Origin: Escherichia coli
GTDB lineage: Bacteria > Pseudomonadota > Gammaproteobacteria > Enterobacterales > Enterobacteriaceae
Reading direction: 5' to 3' (one strand)
NCBI RefSeq assembly: GCF_003790525.1
Contig: NZ_CP033633.1
Length of the DNA: 64,000 nucleotides
Made by a program: the position numbers and the translations under genes. This document shows, in pieces, positions 22,378-40,951 of the stretch (position 1 is the stretch's first letter; each line of letters begins with the position of its first letter). Below the pieces are notes generated by a model, which saw only the letters and a list, made by a program, of their open reading frames with translations, was not told the DNA's origin and ran no database searches.

Positions 22378-22513
22378 TTCATAAATCATAATTATGAATT
22401 GTGATTTATTCTGTAAAAAAGAGACCACTGCAATATGTGATCTCTTGTATGCAAGGGGGCTTAAACAGTATGAATTCACAAGTGTGATTTCATAAGTAAT
22501 AACTTTTTGATTA

Positions 22514-22789
22514 TTATGTTAGTGTTTTTAAGTATTGCTCAAGGGCTACTCTGACGATGGCACTTACATTTTTTGGATCTTTACCATTGCGTTTATTCCT
22601 CAATGCCAGATCTTCTATTGTGACAAGCATGCTTTCACCAAGAGAGATTGTCGTCCGACATTGTTTTTCTGGTTCGGTTTTTTCCGGCGCGCCGTATGGT
22701 TTATCCGCAAGGCGCTGAGCCAGAGCCTCTGCTTGTTCTACCGTAACTGCAGCTCTGTTTAATGCTTGCTGGCTGGGTTTCTTCACCAT
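22514..22789 (-). CDS. ParG-like ribbon-helix-helix centromere-binding protein
   Basis: 91 aa directly downstream of and overlapping the ParA-like ATPase gene; C-terminal RHH-like segment. Confidence 0.5.
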   Translation of the reverse strand: MVKKPSQQALNRAAVTVEQAEALAQRLADKPYGAPEKTEPEKQCRTTISLGESMLVTIEDLALRNKRNGKDPKNVSAIVRVALEQYLKTLT

Positions 22790-23427: not shown

Positions 23428-23429
23428 TG

Positions 23430-23655
23430 CAACCTCATAAATGTGATGTGTGAAGTATGATGATATTTTGACACGGTAACCTGAGGTGTCAATATGCGTT
23501 CATATTTATGAAGTATGAAACATGAAGTGTTTCATATGATGTAATAAATAATACTTGTGTTTTGTGATTTCATAACTATGATAGTACTCAAATTGAGTAT
23601 TACCTTGCAACCAGAAACAGTGATTTACTCAGATTGAGTATTTAAGGGGCTATAG
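23430..23655. promoter_or_regulatory. Divergent promoter / candidate centromere region with repeats
   Basis: Repeats TGAAGTATGA and ACTCAAATTGAGTATTA / ACTCAGATTGAGTATTTA between the divergent parA-like and parM genes. Confidence 0.4.
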
Positions 23656-24627: not shown

Positions 24628-24631
24628 TATT

Positions 24632-25024
24632 GTGGACGATGAACGGAAAAGGAAAAAATTCACACTTTATCTGCATCCGGAAAAAGCTGCAGACTTTCAA
24701 ACTTTGGAAGCGATAGAGTCCGTTCCGCGTTCTGAGCGTGGTGAGCTGTTCCGGAATGCATTTATTTCTGGAATGGCGTTACACCAACTTGATCCTCGCC
24801 TGCCTGTATTGCTGACTGCCATTTTGAGCGAGGAGTTTTCAGCAGATCAGGTTGTAACCTTACTCAGTCAGACGACTGGATGGAAGCCTTCTCAGGCCGA
24901 TATCAGAGCTGTGTTGACTGAACTCGGTGCTTCGCAATCTGCTGAAAAAATGCCTCCTTCTGCTACTGATTCGGTGCAGGAGGCAATGAATGATGTGCGC
25001 CTTAAAATGCAAAAATTATTCTGA
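24632..25024 (+). CDS. parR: ParR/StbB-like adaptor protein
   Basis: About 130 aa from GTG at 24632, immediately after parM; resembles R1 ParR in the ERSxL...DPR...LL region. Confidence 0.65.
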   Translation: MDDERKRKKFTLYLHPEKAADFQTLEAIESVPRSERGELFRNAFISGMALHQLDPRLPVLLTAILSEEFSADQVVTLLSQTTGWKPSQADIRAVLTELGASQSAEKMPPSATDSVQEAMNDVRLKMQKLF

Positions 25025-25028
25025 TATA

Positions 25029-26300
25029 TCAGAATGAAGCAATGGGGATCTCAGTCCATTGTGTTGTATACGAAGGCGAGAGCATTTCCCGTTTCATTTG
25101 CCATTCAGGGGCGGTTCCTCGCCCCGCAAACCACACTTTCCCTTTTCCCGACTGGTTCAGTTCATCGAGTGTTTTCATTAACTTTTCACTGTTTTTACGG
25201 GGCTGGATTTCATCAAATAATCCCGGCTGCGCTATACCCGATGGTGTGAAATCAGCCAGCATGACTCCTGCCTTCATATAGCGGTACCCTTCACGCCAGA
25301 CATGGTTTAAGGCTCTGCATGCGGCGGCAATAATGTCCCGGCTGTCCTGTGTGGGCAATGGAAGCTTTTCCACAGCGGCATTGCTGTAACAGGGTTCTTT
25401 TACTGCAAAGGGGGATGTCCGTACAAATGTCGTCACCTGCCGGCAATACTGACGCTCCCCACGTAGTTTCTCTGCGGCCCGCTCTGCATACTGAACAACA
25501 GCCTGGTGCATGGCATCTTTGTCTGTGATTCGTTCACCAAAACTGCGACTACAGACAATCTGCTGTTTTGCCGGTGGTGCTTCTTCCAGGGATATGCAGG
25601 ACTCGCCGTTGAGTTCGCGTACCGTACGCTCAAGAATGACGCTGAAGTTTTTCCGGATGAATGCCGTGTTAGCCTGCGCCAGCTGCAGTGCTGTGTTAAT
25701 ACCCAGCGCATTCAGCTTTTCCGTCAGTCTGCGTCCTACTCCCCAGACCTCACCAACTGGCTGCAGTCCCAGTAGCTTCAAGATCCGATTACGGTTTTCT
25801 GCCGTCAGCGCGACCACACCGGAAAACTGTGGCCATTGCTTTGTTGCCCACTGTGCACTTTTAGCCAGCGTTTTTGTAGGCGCAATGCCCACCCCCATGG
25901 TGAGTCCTGTCCAGCTCTTTACCTGTTCCCTGAGCTGATGACCAAAAAACTCCGGAGAGATGCAATGATTTATCCCCCGCAAATCAATAAACATTTCATC
26001 AATTGAGTAGGGCTCAACTGCGGGAGAAAGCGACTCCAGAACAGCCATGACCCGTTGGCTCATGCTGTGGTACAGCGCATAATTGCTGGAAAATACATGT
26101 ATTTTCTTCTCCAGGCGCATCTGTCTCACCTGAAACCAGGGCTGCCCCATTCTGATGCCAAGGGCTTTTGCCTCCGGGCTGCGCGCGATCACACAGCCAT
26201 CGTTATTGCTGAGTACGATGACCGGTTCGTTGCGAAGGTCCGGGCGGAAAACTTTTTCACATGAGGCGTAGAAACTGTTGATATCAGCCAGTGCAAACAT
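25029..26300 (-). CDS. impB: Y-family error-prone DNA polymerase subunit ImpB (UmuC/MucB-like)
   Basis: 423 aa; N-terminal ALADINSFYASCE typical of UmuC. Confidence 0.9.
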   Translation of the reverse strand: MFALADINSFYASCEKVFRPDLRNEPVIVLSNNDGCVIARSPEAKALGIRMGQPWFQVRQMRLEKKIHVFSSNYALYHSMSQRVMAVLESLSPAVEPYSIDEMFIDLRGINHCISPEFFGHQLREQVKSWTGLTMGVGIAPTKTLAKSAQWATKQWPQFSGVVALTAENRNRILKLLGLQPVGEVWGVGRRLTEKLNALGINTALQLAQANTAFIRKNFSVILERTVRELNGESCISLEEAPPAKQQIVCSRSFGERITDKDAMHQAVVQYAERAAEKLRGERQYCRQVTTFVRTSPFAVKEPCYSNAAVEKLPLPTQDSRDIIAAACRALNHVWREGYRYMKAGVMLADFTPSGIAQPGLFDEIQPRKNSEKLMKTLDELNQSGKGKVWFAGRGTAPEWQMKREMLSPSYTTQWTEIPIASF

Positions 26301-26737
26301 CAGCGTAACTCCCGCGTCCTGTGTATCACGTGAGTGACAACACCAAAAATACAGATGTTTTCCGGATACAGTGTGCGGAACTCCGGGCTGTCTGAAACCG
26401 GCTCCAGTGCCGGGCGTGGGCGCAACAGCAGTCGTTTGACGGTGAACTCACCGTCGATCTCAGCGATAACGATGTCCCCGTGTTGTGGTTTTTCGGCCCT
26501 GTCCACTACCAGCAGATCACCATTCTGCACGCCAGCCTGGTTCATCGATTCACCGCTGGCGCGCAGAAAGAAGGTGGCTGCAGGTCTGCTGATGCAATAG
26601 CTGTTCAGATCCAGTTCCTGCTCAGCATAATCAGTGGCAGGCGAAGGAAAACCGGCCTGGCAACGATCGGCAAACAACGGTCGCACGTAACTGTCATCGC
26701 CTGAAGGGTCAGCCGGACGGTGATAAACGGTACTCAT
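26300..26737 (-). CDS. impA: ImpA (UmuD/MucA-like, LexA-type self-cleaving protein)
   Basis: 145 aa with S24 peptidase-like region; start overlaps the impC stop. Confidence 0.85.
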   Translation of the reverse strand: MSTVYHRPADPSGDDSYVRPLFADRCQAGFPSPATDYAEQELDLNSYCISRPAATFFLRASGESMNQAGVQNGDLLVVDRAEKPQHGDIVIAEIDGEFTVKRLLLRPRPALEPVSDSPEFRTLYPENICIFGVVTHVIHRTRELR

Positions 26738-26982
26738 GCTGCAGGCAGCCAGCTGTCGTCCTGCCAGATTTCTTCCAGCAGAGACAGGATACGTTCTTTA
26801 TCCTTGTCGTTGCGGGCTCCTGTGACAGATACAGACGGGGCGCTGCCCTGGTCTATACGCAGCCAGATTTCCGGGTAGTGTGGTTTCAGACGTTGTTCGA
26901 TTTCATTCTGTAGCGCCTGAAGTGTGCCTGATTTGAGGTTTTTTGTGCTCTGGCGGTCGAAAAGAATTTCAATGCGGATCAT
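26734..26982 (-). CDS. impC: ImpC small protein of the impCAB operon
   Basis: Start placed at MIRIEILF (26982) so that the LexA box lies upstream; 82 aa. Confidence 0.6.
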   Translation of the reverse strand: MIRIEILFDRQSTKNLKSGTLQALQNEIEQRLKPHYPEIWLRIDQGSAPSVSVTGARNDKDKERILSLLEEIWQDDSWLPAA

Positions 26983-27005
26983 GTTCTCATCTCCCTTTTC
27001 TCTTG

Positions 27006-27021
27006 CTGTATGTATATACAG
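27006..27021. promoter_or_regulatory. LexA (SOS) box upstream of impCAB
   Basis: CTGTATGTATATACAG matches CTGT-N8-ACAG. Confidence 0.75.
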
Positions 27022-27375
27022 TATTCTAATAACTGAATCCACACACAGTCAAATGTCATTATTGTGACTAAAAAACGCTCAATTCTCTGAGGGTGTGGCT
27101 GTATGCCTGCTGTGGAGTGCTGTGTCCAGCTTATCCACAGCATTTTGTGCACGGTTCTGTGGACAAAATACCTGGTTACCCAGGCCGTGCCGGCACGTTA
27201 ACCGGGCTGCATCCGATGCAAGTATGTCGCTGTCGCCGGCCTCCTCACCCGGTCACGTTTCGTCGTTCCTCCTCCACGCGCTGCGGCTTCGGGGCCGCAC
27301 CTGCATTCGTATGCGGTCGCCCGGTAACAGGTGCGGCACGGCCTGATGGAGGCCGCATGTGAGAGGAGAATTCCC

Positions 27376-28302
27376 ATGCCAAACTGGTGCTCGAATCGTA
27401 TGTATTTTTCTGGTGAACCGGCACAGATCGCTGAGATTAAACGACTGGCCAGTGGTGCAGTCACACCGCTTTATCGCCGCGCCACAAATGAAGGTATTCA
27501 GCTGTTTCTGGCCGGAAGTGCCGGACTTCTGCAGACCACTGAAGATGTGCGGTTTGAACCATGCCCCGGACTGACGGCTGCCGGACGTGGTGTTGTATCT
27601 CCGGAGAATATAGCGTTCACCCGCTGGCTGACACACCTGCAGAACGGTGTACTGCTGGATGAGCAAAACTGCCTGATGCTGCATGAACTCTGGCTGCAGA
27701 GCGGTACTGGACAGCGTCGCTGGGAAGGATTACCGGACGATGTCAGGGATACCATCACCGCACTTTTCACCGCAAAAAGAGGTGACTGGTGTGGCTTCTG
27801 GAGTAACGAGGATGTATCGGTGTGGTGGAACCGTCTGTGTGACAATGTACTGCCGGAAAAAACCATGCCGTTTGACCTGCTGACGGTTCTGCCGACCCGC
27901 CTTGATGTTGAAGTGAATGGCTTCAACGGTGGTGTTCTGAACGGTGTTCCTTCTGCATATCACTGGTATACAGAACGGTATGGTGTGAAGTGGCCTTGTG
28001 GGTATGACCTGAATATCAGCAGTCAGGGGGAAAACTTCATTCAGGTGGATTTCGACACGCCGTGGTGTCAGCCGGAAAGCGACGTTATTGCAGCATTAAG
28101 CCGCCGTTTCAGCTGCACGCTGGAGCACTGGTATGCCGAACAGGGCTGTGATTTCTGTGGCTGGCAGTTGTATGAGCGCGGAGAGCTTGTTGATGTGCTG
28201 TGGGGGGAACTGGAATGGTCTTCCCCGACAGATGACGATGAGCTGCCGGAAGTCACCGGACCTGCGTGGATAGTCGACAATGTGGCGCATTATGGCGGAT
28301 GA
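27376..28302 (+). CDS. Leading-region hypothetical protein
   Basis: 308 aa from ATG 27376 with RBS GAGAGGAG; no family confidently recognised. Confidence 0.45.
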   Translation: MPNWCSNRMYFSGEPAQIAEIKRLASGAVTPLYRRATNEGIQLFLAGSAGLLQTTEDVRFEPCPGLTAAGRGVVSPENIAFTRWLTHLQNGVLLDEQNCLMLHELWLQSGTGQRRWEGLPDDVRDTITALFTAKRGDWCGFWSNEDVSVWWNRLCDNVLPEKTMPFDLLTVLPTRLDVEVNGFNGGVLNGVPSAYHWYTERYGVKWPCGYDLNISSQGENFIQVDFDTPWCQPESDVIAALSRRFSCTLEHWYAEQGCDFCGWQLYERGELVDVLWGELEWSSPTDDDELPEVTGPAWIVDNVAHYGG

Positions 28303-28349
28303 AGTATGACGGAGACGGGCGGGAAACCGCCCGTTTCTTTTCCGACAAA

Positions 28350-28690
28350 GGATGTCGCCGGCGGCTCCGCTTTACCCGGCCATGCGGGGCATGGCCTTGT
28401 GGGTTTTCAACTCTGTAGCCTCAGCGTCGTGTGCGGGCTGTGCCGTGCCTCCATCGTAGCCGGGCTTCTGCGGGCGGGTTGCAAGGTAAGGTGAACCGCT
28501 GCGGTCACCCGGTCCCTCCTTCCCGTCTGCCGTGATTTTCCGGTCGTTCACCCGCTCAGATTTCGCGGTCTCACCCTCCAACTCCCGTCAGCCGTGTGCG
28601 TCAGGCTGCGGCTTCCCTTGCGCCCTTGCAACCCTGCAGGCCCGGCAAAGATGGAGGCACGGCACCGCCCGGTGTCGCGGAATATGTGAA
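28350..28690. promoter_or_regulatory. Structured GC-rich repeat, family B copy 1 (candidate ssi/Frpo-like single-strand promoter)
   Basis: About 340 bp near-identical to 35303-35647; immediately upstream of klcA. Confidence 0.5.
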
Positions 28691-28707
28691 CAACGGAGGA
28701 AAACATC

Positions 28708-29133
28708 ATGCAATATGCGAAACCTGTCACTCTGAATGTTGAAGAGTGCGACCGTCTCTCCTTTCTGCCTTACCTGTTTGGCAACGATTTTCTGTATGCC
28801 GAGGCGTATGTGTACGCGCTGGCGCAAAAAATGATGCCGGAATATCAGGGAGGCTTCTGGCACTTCATCCGCCTGCCGGACGGTGGCGGTTACATGATGC
28901 CGGATGGCGACCGTTTCCACATGGTGAACGGTGCAAACTGGTTTGACCGTACCGTGAGTGCTGATGCCTGCGGCATCATTCTGACTTCCCTTGTGATTAA
29001 CCGCCAGTTGTGGCTGTACCACGACAGCGGGGATGCGGGACTGACACACCTTTACCGGATGCGCGATGCGCAGTTGTGGAGCCACATCGAATTTCACCCC
29101 GAATGCAATGCGATTTACGCGGCACTGGACTGA
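28708..29133 (+). CDS. klcA: KlcA/ArdB-type antirestriction protein
   Basis: 141 aa; LSFLPYLFG...[16 protein letters not shown] resembles KlcA/ArdB. Confidence 0.8.
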
Positions 29134-29179
29134 TTAACGGACGGGGCGGCGATGCCGCCCCTGTAAAGGAGACGAGAAC

Positions 29180-29599
29180 ATGTACTGTACTGTTAAAGAA
29201 ATTATCCGCGAAGTGCTGGATACAGACGTGCCGGACAGTGAATGCGTTTTTGCTGTGGTGCTGACCCGTGGGGATGTACGTCACATAGCCCAGGACTGGA
29301 GTCTGACAGACGATGAGCTGGAAACCGTCATGCAGCGGCTGGACGATGCCTTTGAGCATGGTGCTGATGTCAGCATTGTTCACGACGTTGTTCGTGAACT
29401 GATGGAGGAAAAGCGCGTAAACCGTCTTGTAACAGTCCCTGCGGTGCTGCTGGAAAAAGTGATGGTGATGGCTGGTAGTGAAATTTATCGCCTCCATGCT
29501 GTAGGGAGCGAGAACGGGGGCGACGGTGACGCATTTGTCAGGGAAGAACGTGAGATTATGCGGTTGATGCGTCAGGCGCTGGACGGGGAGAACGGGTAA
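29180..29599 (+). CDS. Leading-region hypothetical protein
   Basis: 139 aa acidic protein; no family recognised. Confidence 0.4.
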   Translation: MYCTVKEIIREVLDTDVPDSECVFAVVLTRGDVRHIAQDWSLTDDELETVMQRLDDAFEHGADVSIVHDVVRELMEEKRVNRLVTVPAVLLEKVMVMAGSEIYRLHAVGSENGGDGDAFVREEREIMRLMRQALDGENG

Positions 29600-29790
29600 T
29601 GAATATCAGCACAGAAACCCGCGAAATTCTGCGCAATTACAAAGCCGTGATTAATGCACGACGTCGTGAGATGGGGCAGAAACCGCTCACCACCGCGCAG
29701 ATTGTTGATGAAATCTGCGATTTTGTGGCAAATCAGCAGGCTGTTTTCCTCGGCGGTCACTACATCCTTCAGGGCAGCAGAAACAGGTGA
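29599..29790 (+). CDS. Small hypothetical protein
   Basis: 63-aa ORF whose start overlaps the preceding stop; weak. Confidence 0.3.
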   Translation: MNISTETREILRNYKAVINARRREMGQKPLTTAQIVDEICDFVANQQAVFLGGHYILQGSRNR

Positions 29791-29989
29791 TACAGGGCAG
29801 GCGGTGGAGGCCGCCTGTCAGCCCGCGCGAAAACCCCTGGCAGGCTGACGCCTGCCGGAAACGCGGGGTGCAGCGCCTGCGGCGCTGCCGGCCCGGCTTT
29901 CCGGTCAGAAGGTAGTGTATGGCTGTATGCCAGGAACAGGTGTGATATTCCGTGACGCTGTCACCGTTTCTGGCTGTTTTTTGTTGCGC

Positions 29990-30500
29990 CCACTTCGGCT
30001 CCCGGCTGCCTGGCGGCATCCGGTCGTCAGGCCCGACTCCGACAGGCAGCTGCTGGCGCACCCGCCAGTCTCCGCCGAACCCGCTGGCGCGGTTTCGGGC
30101 TGTCGCTACGGTCCGATGCGTGAAAACCCGGGCTTGCAGCGACCGTTCCGGTCGCGCCGCCTCTGTCGCGCCGTGACCTGCGCTCCCTGCACACCTGACG
30201 GTGTGTGAGGAAACTGCGCCTGATGGCGCAGCAGTCTTCCCTCCTGCCGCCACCTCTGCGGCCTGTTTCCCGCTGTGGACTTTCCGGGGGGCAGACGTAA
30301 CCCCCTCCCGTTCCATCTGTCCAGGGTGAGATGCACCGGCCACAAAATTTTTAGCCATGAACCCGGCTAAAAATTTTGCGTCCGCCCCCGGACAGCTGTC
30401 CCGTGAGGCGGTAAACGGGCCCCCATCGGAAAGGTCCACTGCGGGGAGAAACCCCTGTGAAGTGGACGGCAGGAGGAGCTTTCGCTCCTCTGAAGGGGCA
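29990..30500. promoter_or_regulatory. Structured GC-rich repeat, family A copy 1 (candidate ssi/Frpo-like single-strand promoter)
   Basis: About 500 bp repeated at 36343-36848 and partly at 39725-40055; upstream of ssb. Confidence 0.5.
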
Positions 30501-30559
30501 CATGAACGTCCCGTCGCCGGTATCCGGTTTATCTCACATCTTTCAGTCAGGAGGTTCTT

Positions 30560-31087
30560 ATGAGTGCACGTGGTATCAACAAGGTCATCCTCGTCGGGCG
30601 TCTGGGCAATGATCCGGAAGTCCGTTACATCCCCAACGGGGGCGCAGTGGCAAACCTGCAGGTGGCCACGTCAGAAAGCTGGCGCGACAAACAGACGGGG
30701 GAGATGCGGGAGCAGACGGAATGGCACCGCGTGGTGCTGTTCGGCAAGCTCGCGGAAGTGGCAGGTGAATATCTGCGCAAGGGCGCGCAGGTCTACATCG
30801 AGGGGCAACTCCGTACCCGTAGCTGGGAAGATAACGGTATCACCCGTTACGTCACTGAAATTCTTGTTAAGACCACGGGCACCATGCAGATGCTGGGGAG
30901 TGCACCACAGCAGAACGCTCAGGCGCAACCGAAGCCTCAGCAGAATGGGCAGCCACAGAGTGCTGACGCGACGAAAAAAGGTGGCGCGAAAACGAAAGGC
31001 CGTGGACGTAAGGCCGCGCAGCCCGAGTCTCAGCCGCAACCGCCGGAGGGGGAGGATTACGGGTTTTCAGACGATATCCCGTTCTGA
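30560..31087 (+). CDS. ssb: Plasmid single-stranded DNA-binding protein
   Basis: OB-fold N-terminus [18 protein letters not shown], Gln/Pro-rich linker, acidic C-terminal DDIPF tail. Confidence 0.95.
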
Positions 31088-31105
31088 CTGGCCTGACTGT
31101 GATAA

Positions 31106-31378
<273 letters not shown>

Positions 31379-31441
31379 GAGAGGTGCCGGACGGGAACGC
31401 GTCCGGCAGACATACAACCATCCCGGTCAAAGGAGAAATAT

Positions 31442-33001
31442 ATGTCAGTTACAGAGTCTAAGACAAAAACGGAGCGTAAATCCAGCCGTAAACCTGCAAA
31501 AACGCAGGAAACTGCACTGTCTGCCCTGCTGGCGCAGACGGAGGAAGTGAGCGTGCCGCTGGATTCACTGATTAAATCACCGCTGAATGTGCGCACGGTG
31601 CCGTATTCTGCGGAGTCCGTCAGTGAACTGGCTGATTCCATTAAGGGAGTCGGCCTGCTGCAGAATCTGGTTGTTCATGCCCTGCCAGGTGACCGTTACG
31701 GTGTCGCCGCAGGTGGTCGCCGACTGGCAGCACTCAACATGCTGGCAGAGCGTGACATCATTCAGGCTGACTGGCCTGTCCGCGTGAAAATTATTCCGCA
31801 GGAGCTGGCGACGGCTGCATCGATGACCGAGAACGGTCATCGTCGGGATATGCACCCTGCCGAACAGATTGCCGGATTCCGCGCAATGGCGCAGGAAGGC
31901 AAAACACCTGCGCAAATCGGTGATTTGCTGGGCTATTCACCCCGCCATGTCCAGCGAATGCTGAAACTGGCTGACCTTGCGCCTGTCATCCTCGATGCGC
32001 TGGCAGAAGACCGCATCACCACCGAACACTGTCAGGCGCTGGCGCTGGAGAACGACACCGCGCGTCAGGTGCAGGTGTTTGAAGCCGCCTGCCAGTCAGG
32101 ATGGGGTGGAAAACCGGATGTGCGGGTTATCCGCAACCTGATTACGGAAAGTGAAGTGGCGGTGAAGGACAACACTAAATTTCGCTTTGTGGGGGCTGAT
32201 GCTTTCTCGCCTGACGAACTGCGCACCGATTTGTTCAGCGATGACGGGGACGGTTATGTCGACCGCGTGGCGCTCGATGCCGCCCTGCTGGAAAAACTCC
32301 AGGTTGTTGCAGAGTCCCTTCGGGAAGCAGAAGGCTGGGAATGGTGCGCCGGGCGCATGGAGCCAGTCGGTGAGTGCCGTGAGGATGCCGGAACATACCG
32401 CTGTCTGCCGGAGCCGGAAGCGGTGCTGACGGAGGCGGAAGAAGAACGCCTGAACGAACTGATGACGCGTTACGACGCGCTGGAAAACCAGTGTGAGGAA
32501 TCCGACCTGCTGGAAGCAGAAATGAAGCTGATGCGCTGCATGGCGAAGGTCAGAGCGTGGACGCCGGAGATACGTGCCGGAAGCGGTGTGGTGGTGTCCT
32601 GGCGTTATGGCAACGTATGTGTCCAGCGTGGTGTGCAGTTGCGCAGTGAAGATGACGCGACTGACGACGCTGACCGCACGGAACAGGTGCAGGAGAAAGC
32701 GTCAGTGGAGGAAATCAGTCTGCCACTGCTGACGAAAATGTCTTCCGAACGCACGCTGGCAGTCCAGGCGGCACTGATGCAGCAACCGGACAAATCCCTG
32801 ACACTGCTGGCATGGACGCTCTGCCTGAATGTGTTTGGCAGCGGAGCGTACAGTAAACCAGCACAAATCAGCCTGGAATGTAAACATTATTCGCTGACCA
32901 GCGATGCGCCGTCAGGGAAGGAAGGTGCCGCATTCATGGCGCTGATGGCAGAAAAAGCCCGTCTTGCGGCCCTGTACCGGAGGGATGGTCACGGGACATG
33001 A
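31442..33001 (+). CDS. ParB-like nuclease-domain protein of the leading region
   Basis: 519 aa; N-terminal ParB/Srx-like region (GLLQNLVV...GGRRLAAL). Confidence 0.65.
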   Translation: MSVTESKTKTERKSSRKPAKTQETALSALLAQTEEVSVPLDSLIKSPLNVRTVPYSAESVSELADSIKGVGLLQNLVVHALPGDRYGVAAGGRRLAALNMLAERDIIQADWPVRVKIIPQELATAASMTENGHRRDMHPAEQIAGFRAMAQEGKTPAQIGDLLGYSPRHVQRMLKLADLAPVILDALAEDRITTEHCQALALENDTARQVQVFEAACQSGWGGKPDVRVIRNLITESEVAVKDNTKFRFVGADAFSPDELRTDLFSDDGDGYVDRVALDAALLEKLQVVAESLREAEGWEWCAGRMEPVGECREDAGTYRCLPEPEAVLTEAEEERLNELMTRYDALENQCEESDLLEAEMKLMRCMAKVRAWTPEIRAGSGVVVSWRYGNVCVQRGVQLRSEDDATDDADRTEQVQEKASVEEISLPLLTKMSSERTLAVQAALMQQPDKSLTLLAWTLCLNVFGSGAYSKPAQISLECKHYSLTSDAPSGKEGAAFMALMAEKARLAALYRRDGHGT

Positions 33002-33399
33002 CGACATTCCTTTCACTCAGTCAGGAGGTGCTGTTATCCCTGCTCAGTTTCTGCACCGCGTGCAGCATCCACGGCGTTCAGACCCGCGAGTGTGGTCACA
33101 CGTCACGCAGCCCGCTGGACACGCTGGAGAGCGCCATCGGTTTTCACATGCGCGACTGGTGGCAGCCGACAAAAGCAAACTTCTTCGGACACCTGAAAAA
33201 GCCGCAGATTATCGCAGCCCTGAATGAGGCAGGACTGTCCGGTGCCGCACGGGACGCGGAGAAGATGAAGAAAGGCGATGCGGCTGAACATGCAGAGTTC
33301 CATATGAAAGACAACCGCTGGGTGCCTGGCTGGATGTGTGCACCACGTCCACAGACGGATACCACTGAACGCACTGATAACCTGGCTGATGCCGCCTGA
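32998..33399 (+). CDS. Hypothetical protein, ATGA-coupled to the ParB-like gene (possibly its detached C-terminal part)
   Basis: 133-aa ORF starting at the ATGA overlap with the preceding stop. Confidence 0.35.
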   Translation: MTTFLSLSQEVLLSLLSFCTACSIHGVQTRECGHTSRSPLDTLESAIGFHMRDWWQPTKANFFGHLKKPQIIAALNEAGLSGAARDAEKMKKGDAAEHAEFHMKDNRWVPGWMCAPRPQTDTTERTDNLADAA

Positions 33400-33453
33400 T
33401 GAACAACCACACCGCCCCGCCGGAGACGGGGCGGCAGCAAGGGAGATACCGTG

Positions 33454-33888
33454 ATGAAAACTGAACTGACCCTGAATGTCCTGCAGACCATGAACGCACA
33501 GGAATATGAAGATATCCGTGCTGCGGGAAGCGATATGCGCCGTAATCTCACTCACGAGGTGATGCGTAAAGTGGACGCACCGGCTAACTGGATGATGAAT
33601 GGCGAGTATGGCAGTGAGTTCGGGGGCTTTTTCCCCGTCCAGGTTCGTTTCACGCCAGCCCACGAACGTTTCCACCTGGCATTATGTTCGCCGGGAGACG
33701 TCTCTCAACTCTGGATGCTGGTTCTGGTGAATGGTGGTGGACAGCCTTTCGCCGTCGTTCAGGTGCAACATATCTTCACGCCTGTCGCGATCAGTCACAC
33801 GCTGGCGCTCGCCGCGACACTTGATGCGCAGGGATACAGTGTTAACGACATCATTCATATTTTGATGGCAGAAGGAGGTCAGGCATGA
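33454..33888 (+). CDS. psiB: PsiB, plasmid SOS-inhibition protein
   Basis: [27 protein letters not shown]... near-identical to F PsiB. Confidence 0.9.
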
Positions 33889-34604
33889 GCGCACGTTCAC
33901 GGGCACTGATCCCCCTCAGCGCAGAACAACAGGCCGCCATGCAGGCTGTGGCTGTCACCGAACAACGTCGTCGTCAGGGACGCACACTTTCAGCATGGCC
34001 TTATGCCAGCGCTTTCTTTCGCTGCCTGAATGGCAGTCGCCGGATTTCGCTGACCGATCTCCGCTTTTTTGCCCCTGCGCTGACGAAGGAGGAATTTCAT
34101 GGCAACCGTCTCCTGTGGCTGGCTGCCGTGGATAAACTGATTGAAAGTTTTGGTGAAGTCTGTGTTCTTCCCCTGCCATCCGATGCGGGGCATCGTCTGT
34201 TCCCGTCTGTTCCTTTTCGTGAAGGTGAGCGTCGTCGTCAGAAAACCACGCTGACAGAGCAGAAATACAGCCGCCAGCGGGAACGTGAGGCAGAACGACG
34301 GGAACTGGAATACCAGACATGTTTTGCTCAGGCGCAGATTGACCTTGCGTTTCATACTCCCGCCACGGTCGGAAGCTGGTTGTCCCGCTGGTCTGGTGCT
34401 GTTGAGGAGCATGATCTGGAAACGATTTTCTGGGGGTGGTGCGGGCGTTTTCCGTCACTGTCATCATTTGACCGGTTTTTCTGGCAGGAGGGACCACTCT
34501 GGCGGCTGATTTTTGAAGCCGGTGAGGCCGGTCGTGGTGCACCGGTACAGGTACGTGCACTTGAGCAGTGGATGATCCCGAACAAGCTGGAGAACGTAAT
34601 ATGA
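33885..34604 (+). CDS. psiA: PsiA
   Basis: 239 aa directly after psiB with overlapping stop/start, as in F and ColIb-P9 leading regions. Confidence 0.8.
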
Positions 34605-35302: not shown

Positions 35303-35647
35303 AGGACGTCGCCGGCGGCTCCGCTTTTACCCGGCCATGCGGGGCATGGCCTTGTGGGTTTTCAGGTATGAAGCCATCGTGTCGTGTGCGGGCTGTGCCG
35401 TGCCTCCATCGTAGCCGGGCTTCTGCGGGCGGGATGCAAAGGTACGCTTCGCCGCTGCGGTCACCCGGTCCCTCCTTCCCGTCTGCCGTGATTTTCCGGT
35501 CGTTCACCCGCTCAGATTTCGCGGTCTCACCCTCCAACTCCCGTCAGCCGTGCGCGTCGGGCTGCGGCTTTCCTTGCGCCCTTGCATCCCTGCAGGCCCG
35601 GCAAGGATGGAGGCACGGCACCGCCCGGTGCCGCAGAACATGTGACT
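35303..35647. promoter_or_regulatory. Structured GC-rich repeat, family B copy 2
   Basis: Near-identical to 28350-28690; immediately upstream of ardA. Confidence 0.5.
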
Positions 35648-35662
35648 ATGGAGGATTCGGGA

Positions 35663-36163
35663 ATGTCTGTTGTTGCACCTGCTGTATACGTTGGAACCTG
35701 GCACAAATACAACTGCGGAAGCATCGCCGGACGCTGGTTTGACCTGACCACGTTTGATGATGAACGCGATTTTTTCGCCGCCTGCCGTGCCCTTCACCAG
35801 GATGAAACCGATCCGGAACTGATGTTTCAGGATTATGAGGGATTCCCGGGGAATATGGCCTCTGAATGTCATATCAACTGGGCCTGGGTTGAAGGCTTCC
35901 GCCGGGCGCGGGATGAAGGCTGCGAAGAGGCTTATCGTCTCTGGGTGGATGATACCGGTGAGACGGATTTTGACACCTTCCGCGATGCCTGGTGGGGCGA
36001 GGCTGACAGTGAGGAGGCTTTTGCGGTTGAGTTCGCCAGTGATACCGGCCTGCTGGCTGGCGTGCCGGAGACGGTGGCGCTCTATTTTGACTATGAGGCG
36101 TATGCGCGGGATTTATTCCTGGACTCCTTCACCTTTATTGACGGTCATGTGTTCCGTCGGTGA
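35663..36163 (+). CDS. ardA: ArdA antirestriction protein (type I restriction inhibitor)
   Basis: MSVVAPAVYVGTWHKYNCGSIAGRWFDL... near-identical to ColIb-P9 ArdA; 166 aa from ATG 35663. Confidence 0.9.
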   Translation: MSVVAPAVYVGTWHKYNCGSIAGRWFDLTTFDDERDFFAACRALHQDETDPELMFQDYEGFPGNMASECHINWAWVEGFRRARDEGCEEAYRLWVDDTGETDFDTFRDAWWGEADSEEAFAVEFASDTGLLAGVPETVALYFDYEAYARDLFLDSFTFIDGHVFRR

Positions 36164-36342: not shown

Positions 36343-36848
36343 ACCCTTCGGCTCCCGGCTGCCTGGCGGCATCCGGTCGTCAGGCCCGACTCCGACAGGC
36401 AGCTGCTGGCGCACCCGCCAGTCTCCGCCGAACCCGCTGGCGCGGTTTCGGGCTGCCGCTACGGTCCGATGTCTGAAAAACCAGGCCTGCAGCGACCGTT
36501 CCGGTCGCGCCGCCCCTGTCGCGCCGGAAACGGCGCTCCCTGCACACCTGACGGTGTGTAAGGCCACTGCGCCTGATGGCGCAGTTGTCTGCCCTTCCGC
36601 CGCCACCCCTGCGGCCTGTTTCCCGCTGTGGACTTTCCGGGGGCTGAAGCGGCCACAACACGTTTCAGCCGTCCAGGGGAGAGATGTACCAGCCACAAAA
36701 CTTTTTGCCGCAGGCGTCAAAAACTTTTGCGTCTGCCCCCGGACAACTGCCCCGTGCCGTGGCAGTCGCTGCCCCATCGGAAAGGTCCACTGCGGGGAGA
36801 AACCCCGAAGAAGTGGACGGCAGAAGGGGCTTTCGCCCCTCCGGGGAA
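36343..36848. promoter_or_regulatory. Structured GC-rich repeat, family A copy 2
   Basis: Near-identical to 29990-30500; upstream of ORF 36895. Confidence 0.5.
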
Positions 36849-37752: not shown

Positions 37753-38715
37753 GTGAGTAAGAAGAAAACCACCACGACGCCCACGCCGCATGATGCCGCG
37801 TTCCGGTCGTTCCTGGCGAACCCCGACGTCGCCAGAGATTTTCTGGAACTGCATCTTCCGGCGGAGTACCGGCAGTTGTGCGACCTGTCCACGCTGAAGC
37901 TGGAACCCGCCACCTTTGTTGAGCCGGACCTGCATCAGTACGCCAGCGATATCCTCTGGAGTGTGAAAACCACCGGGGGTGAAGACGGCTATATTTATAC
38001 GCTCATCGAGCACCAGAGCACCGAAAATCTGTACATGCCTTTCCGCATGTTACGTTACAGTGTGGCGGCGATGCAGAGACATCTGGAGCAGCACAAAACA
38101 TTGCCACTGGTGATTCCGGTGCTGTTCTATCATGGTGAGCGCAGCCCGTACCCGTACAGCATGAACTGGCTGGACTGTTTTGAGGATCCGGCGCTTGCGG
38201 CTAAAATATACACAAAGCCGTTTCCGCTGGTTGATATCACTGTCGTTGATGACAATGAAATCATGAACCATCGCCGGATGGCCGCACTGACGCTGCTGAT
38301 GAAGCATATCCGCCATCGTGACATGATGGAGCTGCTGGACAAACTCCCGCAGGTCATGGTGGAAATTTCAGACGAGCAGGTGCGTGTTCTGATTCATTAC
38401 ATCGTTAACGCAGGGGACTCTGTATCACCGGAATTTATGCGGGCGCTGGCTGAGCGTCTGCCGCAGCATGAGGATAAACTGATGACTATTGCCGAACGTC
38501 TTGAGCAGCAAGGAATACAGAAAGGAATACAGCAGGGAATACAGCAGGGAATACAGCAGGGAATACAGCAGGGAATACAGCAGGGAATACAGAAAGGCCG
38601 CATGGAGGAGAAGCAGGATATTGCGCGTCAGCTTCAGAAAACGGGAATGCCATCTGCACAAATCTGTCAGATCACCGGACTTTCCGAAGCTGAACTGAAG
38701 AACATCACTCACTGA
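37753..38715 (+). CDS. Rpn (YhgA-like) recombination-promoting nuclease, full length
   Basis: GTG start after RBS; N-terminal domain DAAFRSFL...DILWSV...YTLIEHQST; C-terminal MTIAERLEQ...TGLSEAELKNI module containing seven in-frame 12-bp repeats. Confidence 0.75.
   Translation: MSKKKTTTTPTPHDAAFRSFLANPDVARDFLELHLPAEYRQLCDLSTLKLEPATFVEPDLHQYASDILWSVKTTGGEDGYIYTLIEHQSTENLYMPFRMLRYSVAAMQRHLEQHKTLPLVIPVLFYHGERSPYPYSMNWLDCFEDPALAAKIYTKPFPLVDITVVDDNEIMNHRRMAALTLLMKHIRHRDMMELLDKLPQVMVEISDEQVRVLIHYIVNAGDSVSPEFMRALAERLPQHEDKLMTIAERLEQQGIQKGIQQGIQQGIQQGIQQGIQQGIQKGRMEEKQDIARQLQKTGMPSAQICQITGLSEAELKNITH
38512..38595 (+). repeat. In-frame 12-bp tandem repeat (7 units, GIQQ/GIQK) inside the Rpn gene
   Basis: GGAATACAGCAG repeated seven times with two A-for-C variants. 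Confidence 0.9.
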
Positions 38716-38728
38716 TGAGAACCACAAA

Positions 38729-38753
38729 GCCCGGCAAAATGCCGGGTTTTTTT
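38729..38753. terminator. Rho-independent terminator after the Rpn gene
   Basis: CCCGGCAAAATGCCGGG followed by TTTTTTT. Confidence 0.6.
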
Positions 38754-38777
38754 GTCAGCAGGAGCAGAGCAAACAGT

Positions 38778-38951
38778 ATGACGATTGCAGAACGTCTTGA
38801 GCAAAAAGGTCGCCAGGAGGGCAGGATGGAAGGTGCGCTTGAAAAAGCCCTGGCTATTGCGTGCCAGCTTCAGAAAATGGGGATGACGCCGGAGCAGATT
38901 AAGCAGGCTACCGGACTGTCCGAAGCTGAACTGAAAAAAATCATTCACTGA
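38778..38951 (+). CDS. Stand-alone Rpn C-terminal-domain small protein (RpnS-like), copy 1
   Basis: 57 aa MTIAERLEQKGRQEGRMEG...TGLSEAELKKIIH; paralogous to the C-terminus of the Rpn gene. Confidence 0.5.
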   Translation: MTIAERLEQKGRQEGRMEGALEKALAIACQLQKMGMTPEQIKQATGLSEAELKKIIH

Positions 38952-38965
38952 TGAGAGCATCACAG

Positions 38966-38990
38966 CCCGGAAGAATGCCGGGCTTTTTTG
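38966..38990. terminator. Rho-independent terminator after RpnS-like copy 1
   Basis: AGCCCGGAAGAATGCCGGGCT followed by TTTTTT. Confidence 0.6.
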
Positions 38991-39009
38991 CCAGCAGGGG
39001 CAGAGCAGT

Positions 39010-39240
39010 ATGACTATTGCAGAACGTCTTATACAGAAAGGTTTCGACGAAGGTTTTAAAGAAAGTTTTAAAGAAAGTTTTAAAGAAGGCTTTAAAGAAG
39101 GCTTTAAAGAAGGGGCGCTTGAAGTGGCGCGGGAAATAGCCTGCCGGCTGCGGGATATAGGCTGGCCGCCGGAACGGATTCAGGAGGTCACGGGACTTTC
39201 CGGTGAAGAACTGAAAAAGCTGTTTCCTGATGAGCAGTAG
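39010..39240 (+). CDS. Stand-alone Rpn C-terminal-domain small protein (RpnS-like), copy 2
   Basis: 76 aa MTIAERLIQKG...(FKES/FKEG x5)...TGLSGEELKKLF; contains its own 12-bp tandem array at about 39050-39112. Confidence 0.5.
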   Translation: MTIAERLIQKGFDEGFKESFKESFKEGFKEGFKEGALEVAREIACRLRDIGWPPERIQEVTGLSGEELKKLFPDEQ

Positions 39241-39270
39241 CCTGGCATTCAGCCAGGCTGTGAATCATGC

Positions 39271-39522
39271 TCACACATCCTCTGCCGTTTCCCCCAGTTC
39301 ATTTTCCAGACGCCTGATGATATCTGCCTTACGCATCCCCTGCATGTGAGGCAGCAGGTCACGGACTGAAAGAGCCTGGGTGGTCCTCCAGACGGTGACG
39401 TCCACCTGTTCCGCATTTTCCCAGGCGTGCCATGTTCTCTGCGTCACGCCAAATTCTCTGGCCGCTTTTTCGCGTGACCAGAGCATGCTTTTTCGCCAGA
39501 TTCGCAGTTCCCAGCCGGTCAT
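39271..39522 (-). CDS. Small helix-turn-helix regulator (hypothetical)
   Basis: 83 aa; HTH-like segment AAREFGVTQRTWHAWEN. Confidence 0.45.
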   Translation of the reverse strand: MTGWELRIWRKSMLWSREKAAREFGVTQRTWHAWENAEQVDVTVWRTTQALSVRDLLPHMQGMRKADIIRRLENELGETAEDV

Positions 39523-39536
39523 AAAACACCTTTGAA

Positions 39537-39625
39537 AAAGTGAAAAAACTTCACTTTATTTTATCACCATAATTGCCAAATCAGCGCGATAAATAAGTGT
39601 GAAAAAAGTGAAGAAATTTCACTTT
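39537..39625. promoter_or_regulatory. Two 21-bp palindromic operator-like sites flanking a promoter
   Basis: AAAGTGAA-N5-TTCACTTT at 39537-39557 and 39605-39625, about 68 bp apart, upstream of the HTH gene. Confidence 0.45.
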
Positions 39626-39724
39626 TTTTGGTTGCAGATGTCGTGCGGTTTTCTCTGTTTTCACCTGTGCGGGAGTGGTGCGCCAGTGACCACAGCATGC
39701 CGTTGTTGTGCCGTCGGTTTTCTC

Positions 39725-40055
39725 CGGTCGCGCCGGATGCGGCGCTCCCTGCACACCTGACGGTGTGTAAGGCCACTGCGCCTGATGGCGCAGCTGTCTC
39801 TGCCTGTCTGCCGCCGCACTGCGGCCCGTTCTCCGCAGACGAACTTTCCGGGGGTACATACACGACCACATCCCGTTTCAGTCGTCCAGGGGAGAGATGT
39901 ACCAGCCACAAAACTTTTTGCCGCAGGCGTCAAAAACTTTTGCGTCTGCCCCCGGACAACTGCCCCGTGACGTGGTGAGCGTCCCCCGTCGGAAAGGTCC
40001 ACTGCGGGGAAATCCCCGAAGACCCGGACGGCAGAAGGAGCTTCGCTCCTCCGGG
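39725..40055. promoter_or_regulatory. Structured GC-rich repeat, family A copy 3 (shorter)
   Basis: Shares the 3' roughly 330 bp of family A; upstream of ORF 40100. Confidence 0.5.
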
Positions 40056-40099
40056 AAATGACCTGGCTGACCCGGCAGTCGTGACGATGAGGAGACAAT

Positions 40100-40951
40100 G
40101 TGATGAATCAGACTTTACCCACTGCTGACCTGAATACTGCCGGCACGACAGATGTTATTCCGTCTGTGGCTATCGACCGCATCATCGCGCAGCGTAACGA
40201 AGGTATTGCACTGTTCATGCAGGCGATGGAATGCCTGGCGACAGCGCGCAGGATTCTGCTCGATGCGTCAGGTGATATTTTTCTTTACGGGTTTGAAGAC
40301 TGCGTGACTGATTCCGTTCGTCGCATGGATAAACCGGAAGAAGCGAAAAGGAATATCACCCGTCTTGCCGACCGGAAAATCTGGGACCGCCTGATGACAG
40401 ATACGGGCATGTACACCTTCATGAGTTCATGCCAGCGTGATGAGTGGAACAGCCAGCTGATGAGCGACACCTGTCCTGAAATCATCCTGGACAATGTACT
40501 GGCAACATTCCGCCATCTGAATGCCAGCAAAATGCAGACATTTGAACAGGGACTGATTGATGTCTACCGGAAATTGTCATGGGATTACAGAACCAATAAT
40601 CCCTGCCGTCTGGGCAAGAGAATCATTATTGAAAACCTGCTGTACCGCTGGAGTAACGGGCGTGTGACGCTGGACTGCAGCGGGCGGGAGGCACTGGATG
40701 ACCTGGTACGTCCGTTTTATCTGCTGGATGGGCGCAACATTCCTGACTTCCGGAGCAGCATCGGGGCGCAGTATGGTGAATTTCTCGGGAACGGCGACAA
40801 TGTCGGTAAGCTGTTAGAAGGGGAATATTTTACGGTGCGTGGCTACCAGAAAGGGACCGTACACATTGTCTTTAAGCGTTCTGACCTTGTTGAAAAACTG
40901 AATGATATTATTGCACGGCATTATCCTGGTGCATTGCCGCCACGAGTCTGA
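40100..40951 (+). CDS. Leading-region hypothetical protein, the plus-strand gene nearest oriT
   Basis: 283 aa; no family recognised. Confidence 0.45.
   Translation: MMNQTLPTADLNTAGTTDVIPSVAIDRIIAQRNEGIALFMQAMECLATARRILLDASGDIFLYGFEDCVTDSVRRMDKPEEAKRNITRLADRKIWDRLMTDTGMYTFMSSCQRDEWNSQLMSDTCPEIILDNVLATFRHLNASKMQTFEQGLIDVYRKLSWDYRTNNPCRLGKRIIIENLLYRWSNGRVTLDCSGREALDDLVRPFYLLDGRNIPDFRSSIGAQYGEFLGNGDNVGKLLEGEYFTVRGYQKGTVHIVFKRSDLVEKLNDIIARHYPGALPPRV

What the first reader, a model, noticed from the sequence alone, without database searches (positions are those of the whole stretch)
39537..39625. Paired palindromic operator-like sites upstream of the small HTH regulator
Two 21-bp sites of the form AAAGTGAA-N5-TTCACTTT lie about 68 bp apart and flank an AT-rich promoter-like stretch upstream of the minus-strand HTH gene, between the Rpn cluster and family A repeat copy 3. 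The HTH protein may autoregulate and could also control neighbouring leading-region genes.
Basis: seen in the sequence. Interest (0 to 1): 0.4.

Follow-up and report, generated by a model that had tools for sequence, protein, structure and literature searches.

The report
Self-control sites of a plasmid regulator
Two identical 21-bp palindromes in front of a small DNA-binding protein gene on an IncI-type resistance plasmid are almost certainly that protein's own binding sites for switching its gene off, which is an ordinary type of control, though the protein family is uncharacterised.

Summary
AAAGTGAA-N5-TTCACTTT occurs at 39537-39557 and 39605-39625. It occurs nowhere else in the 64-kb window, nor in 100 kb of a related IncI plasmid.

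The window is the oriT-proximal leading region of an IncI-complex plasmid. The 83-aa gene (39271-39522, minus strand) is 'ygeA' in R64 naming.

Comparative evidence supports a repressor-operator pair:
- In 29 of about 37 loci encoding homologs (35-57% identity), an (A/T)AAGTG-N9-CACTT(T) palindrome lies about 25 nt upstream of the ATG.
- In 21 of 27 loci a -10-like hexamer abuts this palindrome.
- A second copy lies 55-68 bp further upstream in about half of them.
- The inner half-site bases (GTGAA, GTGCA, GTGAC) change together with residues of the recognition helix.

The protein's HTH is closest to the anti-CRISPR-associated repressor Aca2. It lacks Aca2's C-terminal domain, its operon partner and its operator sequence.

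Most likely mechanism: a YgeA dimer on the proximal site blocks RNA polymerase (negative autoregulation) and the distal site assists. No sequence evidence supports control of neighbouring leading-region genes.

The gene is antisense to the leading genes, so it can only be transcribed after complementary-strand synthesis. Binding itself is untested.

The parts
39537..39557 (.). Proximal operator, AAAGTGAA-AAAAC-TTCACTTT. It is a perfect 8+8 palindrome that abuts the -10 hexamer and ends 15 nt before the ATG.
   Evidence: The equivalent site is centred 22-26 nt upstream of the ATG in most homolog loci. It is conserved in the diverged 84% Salmonella clade.
39605..39625 (.). Distal operator, AAAGTGAA-GAAAT-TTCACTTT. 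Flanking A and T runs extend the palindrome to about 39602-39628.
   Evidence: A distal copy lies 55-68 bp from the proximal one in about half of the homolog loci. It forms a conserved island in otherwise diverged intergenic DNA.
39558..39566 (-). Predicted extended -10 promoter element of ygeA. On the minus strand it reads TG-a-TAAAAT, with TAAAAT at 39563-39558. No convincing -35 was found.
   Evidence: Read. A -10-like hexamer ends within 0-2 nt of the operator edge in 21 of 27 loci, against 12% of random windows. TGATA(A/G)AAT is conserved in both IncI clades. The generic promoter scan found nothing at 9/12 or better.
39527..39532 (-). Shine-Dalgarno-like AAGGTG, 4 nt upstream of the ATG at 39522-39520.
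   Evidence: Read. Conserved through the ATG in the IncI clades.
39271..39522 (-). ygeA (R64 nomenclature). It encodes an 83-aa XRE-type HTH protein with helices 3-12, 17-24, 28-35 (recognition), 42-60 and 65-76.
39700..40090 (+). Family A repeat copy 3 (class 1 ssDNA promoter, ssi/Frpo-type) in front of ygfB (40100-40951). It is a neighbour, not part of the operator system.
   Evidence: PMC12672017 identifies ssi1-3 as class 1 ssDNA promoters.

Best explanation
The two palindromes are the operators of the adjacent 83-aa HTH protein YgeA. A YgeA dimer binds each 21-bp site, with one recognition helix per AAGTG half-site (half-site centres about 12-13 bp apart). The proximal site starts immediately after the -10 hexamer and spans the expected transcription start. 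Bound YgeA therefore excludes or traps RNA polymerase and represses its own monocistronic gene. The distal site, 68 bp upstream, probably raises occupancy of the proximal site through cooperativity or looping. The gene is antisense to the leading-region genes, so the transferred strand carries its sense strand, not its template. The promoter can therefore fire only after complementary-strand synthesis in the recipient. It would start unrepressed and then shut itself down to a low steady level. Shown here: the sites, their uniqueness, their conserved position over the -10/+1 region, their co-occurrence and co-variation with the HTH family, and the HTH fold. Inferred: binding, dimerisation, the sign of regulation, the role of the distal site, and the timing.
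For: (1) Two exact copies exist, unique in 64 kb and in 100 kb of pN537; such a pair never arose in simulations. (2) AGTG-N9-CACT occurs 32 times in 4,080 nt upstream of homologous genes and 6 times in 184 kb elsewhere in the same loci. Four of those 6 are distal sites displaced by an inserted cassette. (3) The neighbouring genes differ between loci (DUF4942, DUF5983, DUF932, TA cassettes, methylase, klcA, phage-plasmid genes). The HTH gene is the only constant partner. (4) Operator and recognition helix co-vary: GVT(Q/L)RTWHAWEN goes with GTG(A/T)A; (S/C)LRT(Y/W)(K/H)xYE with GTGCA; SLRTYKRYE with GTG(A/T)C; and Gilliamella VTTRTYQNYE with ACG-N9-CGT in the same geometry. (5) A -10-like hexamer abuts the proximal site in 21 of 27 loci, against 12% background. 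(6) In the 84%-identity Salmonella clade the intergenic DNA has diverged except for the distal site and the TGATAGAAT-proximal site-SD block. (7) The AF2 model has pLDDT 91.5 and a five-helix HTH fold. The nearest solved relatives are autorepressors that bind inverted repeats: Aca2 (profile E 9.6e-7), HipB, MqsA and C-proteins. YgeA R29 aligns with Aca2 R30, which is required for Aca2 regulation.
Against: There is no experimental binding, transcription-start or expression data for this gene. The library search for ygeA plus IncI1 found only papers about the unrelated F-plasmid ygeA. The promoter is weak by consensus, with no -35, and the scan tool found none, so the position of +1 is inferred. 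Distal-proximal spacing (55-57, 64, 67-68 bp) does not keep a constant helical phase, and several loci have no distal site, so cooperative looping is uncertain. A protein that regulates only itself has no obvious purpose, so another target or activity must exist that this analysis did not find.
Confidence: 0.75

Rival explanations
1. YgeA binds both sites but the circuit is dual. The distal site activates a weak promoter at low YgeA levels and the proximal site represses at high levels, as in restriction-modification controller (C) proteins.
For: The promoter lacks a recognisable -35 in all loci. The distal site is centred roughly 50-65 bp upstream of the inferred start, where activators act. 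C-proteins are among the structural neighbours.
Against: Many loci have only the proximal site, or a distal site moved 0.8-1.1 kb away by an insertion, so the gene can apparently be expressed without a nearby distal site. The IncI clades carry an extended -10 (TGn) that does not need activation. C-protein operators are adjacent, not 55-68 bp apart (my own knowledge of C.AhdI and C.Esp1396I).
Confidence: 0.15
2. The palindromes act as nucleic-acid hairpins rather than, or in addition to, duplex operators. Options are a weak terminator for plus-strand read-through from the Rpn operon, or a 5'-UTR hairpin bound by the protein as Aca2 binds its IR2 RNA.
For: The distal site folds as a 12-bp A/U hairpin (-10.6 kcal/mol, z -3.5) flanked by U residues on the plus strand. 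Aca2, the closest relative, also binds an RNA hairpin in its 5' UTR.
Against: The stems have only 2 G-C pairs, the U run is consumed by the stem, and the terminator scan found nothing there. With the conserved -10 abutting the site, transcription should start inside the left arm, so the proximal hairpin would not be fully transcribed. Hairpin function alone does not explain the conserved AAGTG identity or its co-variation with the protein.
Confidence: 0.07
3. The sites are bound by some other factor, such as a host protein like CRP or the neighbouring Rpn C-terminal HTH fragments, and their position upstream of ygeA is incidental.
For: GTGA...TCAC resembles a CRP half-site pair. Rpn-derived small HTH ORFs lie next door. 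An unrelated phage cro/cI switch uses the same GTGAA-N5-TTCAC motif.
Against: The spacing is GTGA-N7-TCAC, not the CRP N6 (read; CRP consensus from my own knowledge). Most homolog loci use GTGCA or GTGAC, which are further from CRP. Rpn genes are absent from most loci that keep the palindromes. The half-site variants track the HTH sequence.
Confidence: 0.03

Closest known systems
Aca2 (anti-CRISPR-associated protein 2, phage ZF40; PDB 7ezy, 7vjo-q, 7b5j)
   Same: It is the best sequence-profile and fold match: E 9.6e-7 over residues 1-52 and Foldseek probability 0.99. Both share the MTxxEL..R(K)...AA..(I/L)G.S.R(S/T)(W/Y)..(W/Y)E N-terminus, and the DNA-contacting arginine aligns (Aca2 R30 = YgeA R29). 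Aca2 is an autorepressor with two inverted repeats in its promoter and 5' UTR (PMC6765145).
   Different: YgeA is 83 aa, not about 120. It has no DUF1870 match and lacks the C-terminal dimerisation domain. It is monocistronic with no upstream acr-like gene. Its operator is AAGTG-N9-CACTT rather than TTCG-N6/N8-CGAA. Its sites are 55-68 bp apart.
HipB / MqsA / HigA-type XRE antitoxin repressors
   Same: They are small XRE HTH dimers that autorepress through palindromes overlapping the promoter. They appear as weak profile and fold hits. The half-site spacing of about 13 bp resembles the HipB operator TATCC-N8-GGATA (my own knowledge).
   Different: No toxin partner gene is co-transcribed. All NCBIfam scores are far below the cut-offs.
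Restriction-modification controller (C) proteins, e.g. C.AhdI and C.Esp1396I
   Same: They are XRE proteins of about 80 aa with paired palindromic operators upstream of their own gene, timing expression after entry into a new host. They are structural neighbours.
   Different: C-boxes are adjacent and control a downstream endonuclease gene. Here the sites are 68 bp apart and no downstream gene exists. Only the distant pOXA-48 homolog sits before a 'restriction endonuclease' gene, and it lacks the motif.
PHROG 6962 (phage protein family, function unknown) and RstR of CTXphi
   Same: The window protein matches phrog_6962 at E 1.8e-13 and its phage-plasmid homolog matches at 9.5e-45. The homologs give weak RstR-family hits.
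   Different: PHROG 6962 has no assigned function. The RstR scores (19-34 bits, homologs only) are far below the 80-bit cut-off.

Membership tests
XRE / Cro-C1-type HTH regulators (Pfam HTH_3, HTH_31) | Sequence match to the Pfam HTH models at the curated threshold | tested here: inconclusive
   The window protein scores HTH_31 23.5 bits (cut-off 27) and HTH_3 16.8 bits (cut-off 23). Of 32 family members, 29 match HTH_31 and 27 match HTH_3 at E<=0.01, best 8.8e-9.
XRE / Cro-C1-type HTH regulators (Pfam HTH_3, HTH_31) | Helical bundle with a helix-turn-helix (helices 2-3) fold | tested here: met
   The AF2 model has pLDDT 91.5 with helices 3-12, 17-24, 28-35, 42-60 and 65-76. The top Foldseek hits are all XRE proteins (Aca2, HipB, HigA2, SinR, C.AhdI), though E-values are 0.19 or higher because the domain is short.
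XRE / Cro-C1-type HTH regulators (Pfam HTH_3, HTH_31) | Binds a palindromic operator as a dimer | not testable with these tools
   Only indirect evidence is available: conserved palindromes upstream of 29 of about 37 homologs, and co-variation with the recognition helix.
Aca2 (DUF1870, anti-CRISPR-associated) | N-terminal HTH homologous to Aca2 | tested here: met
   The family profile against PDB gives 7ezy_A E 9.6e-7, 8w35 8.6e-5 and 7vjo 8.8e-5, over residues 1-52 only. The best fold hit is 7vjp_A.
Aca2 (DUF1870, anti-CRISPR-associated) | C-terminal dimerisation domain, with a protein of about 115-125 aa matching DUF1870 | tested here: not met
   The protein is 83 aa. No DUF1870 hit appears for it or any of the 32 relatives at E<=0.01. 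The alignment to Aca2 stops at residue 52.
Aca2 (DUF1870, anti-CRISPR-associated) | Encoded in an operon downstream of an anti-CRISPR gene | tested here: not met
   There is no co-oriented ORF between the promoter and the gene or after it. The flanking genes are divergent or convergent in nearly all operator-bearing loci.
Aca2 (DUF1870, anti-CRISPR-associated) | Operators with the TTCG-N6/N8-CGAA core | tested here: not met
   The sites are AAGTG-N9-CACTT. The Aca2 repeats are as described in PMC6765145.
Type II antitoxin (HipB/MqsA/HigA) | Adjacent co-transcribed toxin gene | tested here: not met
   The gene is monocistronic. NCBIfam hits are at E 0.04-0.1, far below the cut-offs.
R-M controller (C) protein | Adjacent paired C-boxes and a downstream restriction endonuclease gene | tested here: not met
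   The sites are 68 bp apart centre to centre and no downstream co-oriented gene exists.
Intrinsic terminator (for the palindromes themselves) | G+C-rich stem followed by a free U tract | tested here: not met
   The terminator scan found nothing at either site. Each 8-bp arm has 2 G-C pairs, and folding energies are -6.3 to -10.6 kcal/mol.
Family A (class 1 ssDNA promoter, ssi/Frpo) repeat | The sites lie within the repeated unit | tested here: not met
   Copies 1 and 2 have no such palindrome. Copy 3 homology starts at about 39700-39720.

The most novel reading that the evidence does not exclude
YgeA-like proteins are a conserved double-strand-stage module of NikB-type (MOBP) leading regions. 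The gene lies a few kb from oriT and is antisense to the ssDNA-promoter-driven anti-restriction genes (klcA, ardA, methylase, Rpn). It can fire only after complementary-strand synthesis. Its burst of convergent transcription, or YgeA bound as a roadblock or insulator next to the ssi element, would help close the early anti-defence programme. This would be an Aca-like 'off switch' for plasmids, built from a truncated Aca2-type HTH.
Probability: 0.1. Interest if true: 0.7.

Novelty: new member of a known kind. Interest (0 to 1): 0.35.

Why it matters
IncI-complex plasmids are major carriers of ESBL genes, and about 2,000 plasmid records carry this locus nearly unchanged. Recent leading-region studies have focused on genes transcribed from the incoming single strand (PMC11541004, PMC12672017). 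YgeA is one of two genes here with the opposite orientation (the other is the oriT-adjacent MobC-like yggA), and it has a clean, predictable operator code (AAGTG-N9-CACTT with specificity variants). That makes it an easy experimental handle on the transition from the single-strand to the double-strand programme. It is also a compact set of orthogonal repressor/operator pairs. As a regulatory device it is conventional.

Tried and rejected
- **CRP or other host-factor site.** The spacing is GTGA-N7-TCAC, not N6, and most relatives use GTGCA.
- **Intrinsic terminators.** None was detected and the stems are weak and AT-rich.
- **Part of the family A / ssi repeat.** The sites lie outside the homology.
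- **Known RNA family.** No Rfam match overlaps the sites at E<=1.
- **Further YgeA targets on the plasmid.** None was found in the 64-kb window or in 100 kb of pN537. The AGTG-N9-CACT hits there lie at five repeated positions (14971-34377) overlapping or next to annotated IS26 transposase genes and look like chance.
- **Divergent sigma-70 promoter at the distal site.** None was found, and the inter-site sequence is not conserved in the 84% clade.
- **Constant helical phasing of the two sites.** Spacings of 55-57, 64 and 67-68 bp give no constant phase.
- **Aca2, antitoxin and C-protein membership.** Defining features were not met (see the membership table).
- **Literature on ygeA.** The hits concern the unrelated F-plasmid ygeA. 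The pESBL conjugation RNA-seq paper has no supplementary tables held, so I could not read the expression of this gene.
- **Scan of viral contigs for the exact motif.** It gave 61 loci. Most are single hits in contigs of low G+C (median 0.39), consistent with chance. Two are IncI plasmid fragments, and one is an unrelated cro/cI switch using the same motif.
- **PADLOC.** No meaningful hit.

Full report
**1. Observation**

The plus strand reads AAAGTGAAAAAACTTCACTTT at 39537-39557 and AAAGTGAAGAAATTTCACTTT at 39605-39625.
- A search for AAAGTGAA-N5-TTCACTTT with up to three mismatches returns only these two places in 64 kb.
- With four mismatches, only two further hits with degenerate arms appear.
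- The window holds 59 perfect inverted repeats with arms of 8 or more, against 7.6 expected. A pair sharing the same arm within 150 nt never arose in 100 Markov simulations.

**2. Setting**

- The region matches about 2,000 conjugative IncI-complex plasmids at 95% identity or more. The best match is an IncK2/Z plasmid, NZ_CP029742.1.
- In a record annotated with R64 names the gene order is ssb, yfhA, psiB, psiA, ygaA, ardA, ygcA, ygdA, ygdB (Rpn), ygeA (opposite strand), ygfB (DUF4942), yggA (opposite strand), then nikA and nikB. The oriT lies in the yggA-nikA gap (inferred from R64).
- The window is thus the oriT-proximal leading region, and the HTH gene is R64-type ygeA. This gene is unrelated to the F-plasmid ygeA studied by Couturier et al..
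- The family A repeats are the class 1 ssDNA promoters (ssi1-3) described for IncI1 plasmids (PMC12672017). Copy 3 homology begins near 39700-39720, so the palindromes lie outside it.
- The leading region lies at lower coordinates than oriT and enters first. The transferred strand must therefore be the minus strand, which is the template for the plus-strand leading genes. It carries the sense strand of ygeA, not its template (inference from gene order; PMC11541004, for the orientation rule).

**3. Anatomy in the direction of the gene (minus strand)**

The sequence reads: ...AAAAAAAGTGAAATTTCTTCACTTTTTT (distal) - 47 nt - TG a TAAAAT | AAAGTGAAGTTTTTTCACTTT (proximal) TTCAAAGGTGTTTT ATG.
- The -10 hexamer directly abuts the proximal site and has an extended-10 TG.
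- No good -35 exists, and the generic scan reports no promoter.
- The proximal site should therefore cover about -6 to +15.

**4. The protein**

- Pfam gives sub-threshold HTH_31 and HTH_3 hits for this protein. Of 32 relatives, 29 match HTH_31 and 27 match HTH_3 at E<=0.01.
- The family is small: 79 cluster representatives at E<=1e-3 among 1.84 billion.
- It shares a conserved N-terminus, MTGxELRLWRKGMxWxQExAAEELGVSLRTYxxYE.
- AlphaFold2 gives a confident five-helix model with pLDDT 91.5.
- The closest solved proteins by profile and by fold are Aca2 anti-CRISPR-associated repressors, followed by HipB, MqsA, HigA2 and C-proteins. The Aca2 match (E 9.6e-7) covers residues 1-52 only.
- YgeA R29 aligns with Aca2 R30, which is needed for Aca2 regulation.
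- YgeA lacks the Aca2 C-terminal domain, gives no DUF1870 hit, and is not preceded by an acr-like gene.
- It also matches PHROG 6962, a family of unknown function.

**5. Comparative test of the operator hypothesis**

I collected loci encoding homologs from plasmids, phages, one genome per species, and assemblies. They include Erwinia, Yersinia, Citrobacter, Rahnella, Buttiauxella, Enterobacter, Hafnia, Providencia, Pantoea, Serratia and a Yersinia phage-plasmid.

- *Presence and position.* In 29 of about 37 loci a palindrome (A/T)AAGTG-N9-CACTT(T) lies upstream of the ATG. In most its centre is 22-26 nt from the ATG, and in a few 34-56 nt.
- *Enrichment.* AGTG-N9-CACT occurs 32 times in the 4,080 nt upstream of these genes and 6 times in the remaining 184 kb. 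Four of those six are perfect distal sites moved 0.8-1.1 kb away by an inserted cassette. I confirmed this cassette as a toxin-antitoxin pair in L014.
- *Promoter overlap.* A -10-like hexamer (TAAAAT, TAGAAT, TATAAT, TACAAT or TAAATT) ends within 0-2 nt of the operator edge in 21 of 27 loci, against 12% of random windows.
- *Distal copies.* A second site lies 55-57 bp away in most loci that have one, 64 bp in Hafnia, and 67-68 bp in the IncI clades. Buttiauxella has three sites at 55-56 bp steps.
- *Neighbours.* The adjacent genes vary widely while the HTH gene is constant. It is nearly always a lone gene antisense to its neighbours. It often lies within 3 kb of nikA/nikB/yggA and is convergent with klcA or ardA homologs.

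The inner operator bases change with the recognition helix:

| Recognition helix | Half-site |
|---|---|
| GVT(Q/L)RTWHAWEN (IncI) | GTG(A/T)A |
| (S/C)LRT(Y/W)(K/H)xYE | GTGCA |
| SLRTYKRYE | GTG(A/T)C |
| Gilliamella VTTRTYQNYE | ACG-N9-CGT, same geometry |

In the 84%-identity Salmonella clade the intergenic DNA is essentially unalignable. The exceptions are two islands: the distal site, and the block TGATAGAAT + proximal site + SD.

Together these results make the cis-encoded HTH the only consistent candidate binder.

**6. Mechanism**

The best-supported reading is classical negative autoregulation. A YgeA dimer on the proximal site occludes the -10/+1 region, and the distal site assists.
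- Helical phase is not conserved and the distal site is dispensable in some lineages. Its role in cooperativity, looping or activation therefore stays open.
- Because of its orientation, the gene should be silent on the incoming single strand. It should fire once the duplex is made, unrepressed at first, and then settle at a low level (inference).
- No other operator exists in the window or in 100 kb of pN537, so there is no sequence support for control of neighbouring leading-region genes.
- What YgeA does beyond regulating itself is unknown. That gap is the main weakness of the account.

**7. Rivals**

- Hairpin or terminator function is unlikely. The stems have 2 G-C pairs, the scan gave no terminator call, and the proximal palindrome should be only partly transcribed.
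- CRP is excluded by spacing, and Rpn-derived HTH fragments by their absence from most loci.
- A C-protein-like dual circuit remains possible.

**8. Novelty and score**

I found no description of this protein family or its operator in the searchable literature. The device itself, a small XRE repressor with palindromic operators over its own promoter, is textbook.

I rate it a new member of a known kind, with interest 0.35. The more novel possibility is that this antisense, duplex-only, Aca2-like gene closes or insulates the early anti-defence programme of the leading region. That reading is not excluded, but it is unsupported beyond synteny (probability about 0.1).

Noticed in passing
L014 2158-2991 (Yersinia ruckeri); likewise L017 and L035; L036 and L029 with other inserts: In L014 a cassette of about 0.8 kb sits between the distal and proximal YgeA-type operators, separating them by 813 bp. 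It holds a 107-aa and a 98-aa gene resembling a RelE/HigB-type toxin and an XRE antitoxin, plus its own TTCGTACTnAGTACGAA palindromes. L017 shows the same pair of ORFs and spacing; L035 has the same ORFs and distal site but a weaker proximal site. The inter-operator gap may be an insertion hot spot.
   Followed up: partly
L020, L021, L022, L025 (Buttiauxella), about 135, 79 and 24 nt upstream of the HTH gene: Three operator copies occur at regular 55-56 bp steps, and the two distal ones have a degenerate right arm (TGCCCTT). This suggests a higher-order nucleoprotein array.
   Followed up: no
window 28371-28689 and 35326-35645: Two repeats of about 320 nt, 92-94% identical, lie immediately upstream of a KlcA/ArdB-like gene (28708-29133) and of ardA (35663-36163). 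They fit the class 2 ssDNA promoters reported for klcA and ardA in pESBL (PMC12672017).
   Followed up: partly
window 38715-38951 and 39010-39240 (plus repeat 38616-38771 / 38852-39007): Two small ORFs after the full Rpn gene are duplicated Rpn C-terminal tails. Related loci flag them as HTH_Rpn_C. They carry low-complexity QQGI/KEGF repeats and resemble stand-alone Rpn tail proteins.
   Followed up: no
window 39500-39720 versus 29993-30160 and 36346-36515: Family A (ssi) copy 3 lacks the 5' part of about 170 nt shared by copies 1 and 2. The ygeA promoter region occupies that space.
   Followed up: partly
window 39239-39259: A perfect 8-bp-arm inverted repeat (AGCCTGGC-ATTCA-GCCAGGCT) lies between the convergent stops of the Rpn-tail ORF and ygeA. 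It may be a bidirectional terminator hairpin, but it has no T run.
   Followed up: no
L002 6338-6358 (NZ_CP029742.1, the closest relative of the window): The proximal operator carries a C-to-T change in its right arm (TTCATTTT). This is a natural operator variant worth testing for derepression.
   Followed up: no
L065 4240-4370; L071 6950-7135: A phage cro/cI-type switch with an unrelated 62-aa Cro-like protein carries four GTGA-N7-TCAC operators, one of them identical to the IncI site. A 60% G+C viral contig carries three AAAGTGAAAC-N-GTTTCACTTT copies with no YgeA homolog detected.
   Followed up: partly
L031, L032 (Gilliamella), about 36 nt upstream of the HTH gene: The homolog has the palindrome AAATACGAAAAATTTTCGTATTT (ACG-N9-CGT). 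The geometry is the same but the half-site differs, matching a changed recognition helix (VTTRTYQNYE).
   Followed up: no
L003 4001-4829 (pOXA-48-like IncL plasmid): A 31%-identical homolog sits inside an operon, overlapping a downstream gene annotated as a restriction endonuclease. It has no AAGTG palindrome upstream, so it is a different use of the same HTH.
   Followed up: no
window 19511-19810 / 21915-22214 and 19960-20042 / 22368-22450: These are further direct repeats (95% and 88% identical) about 2.4 kb apart, elsewhere in the window. I did not examine them.
   Followed up: no
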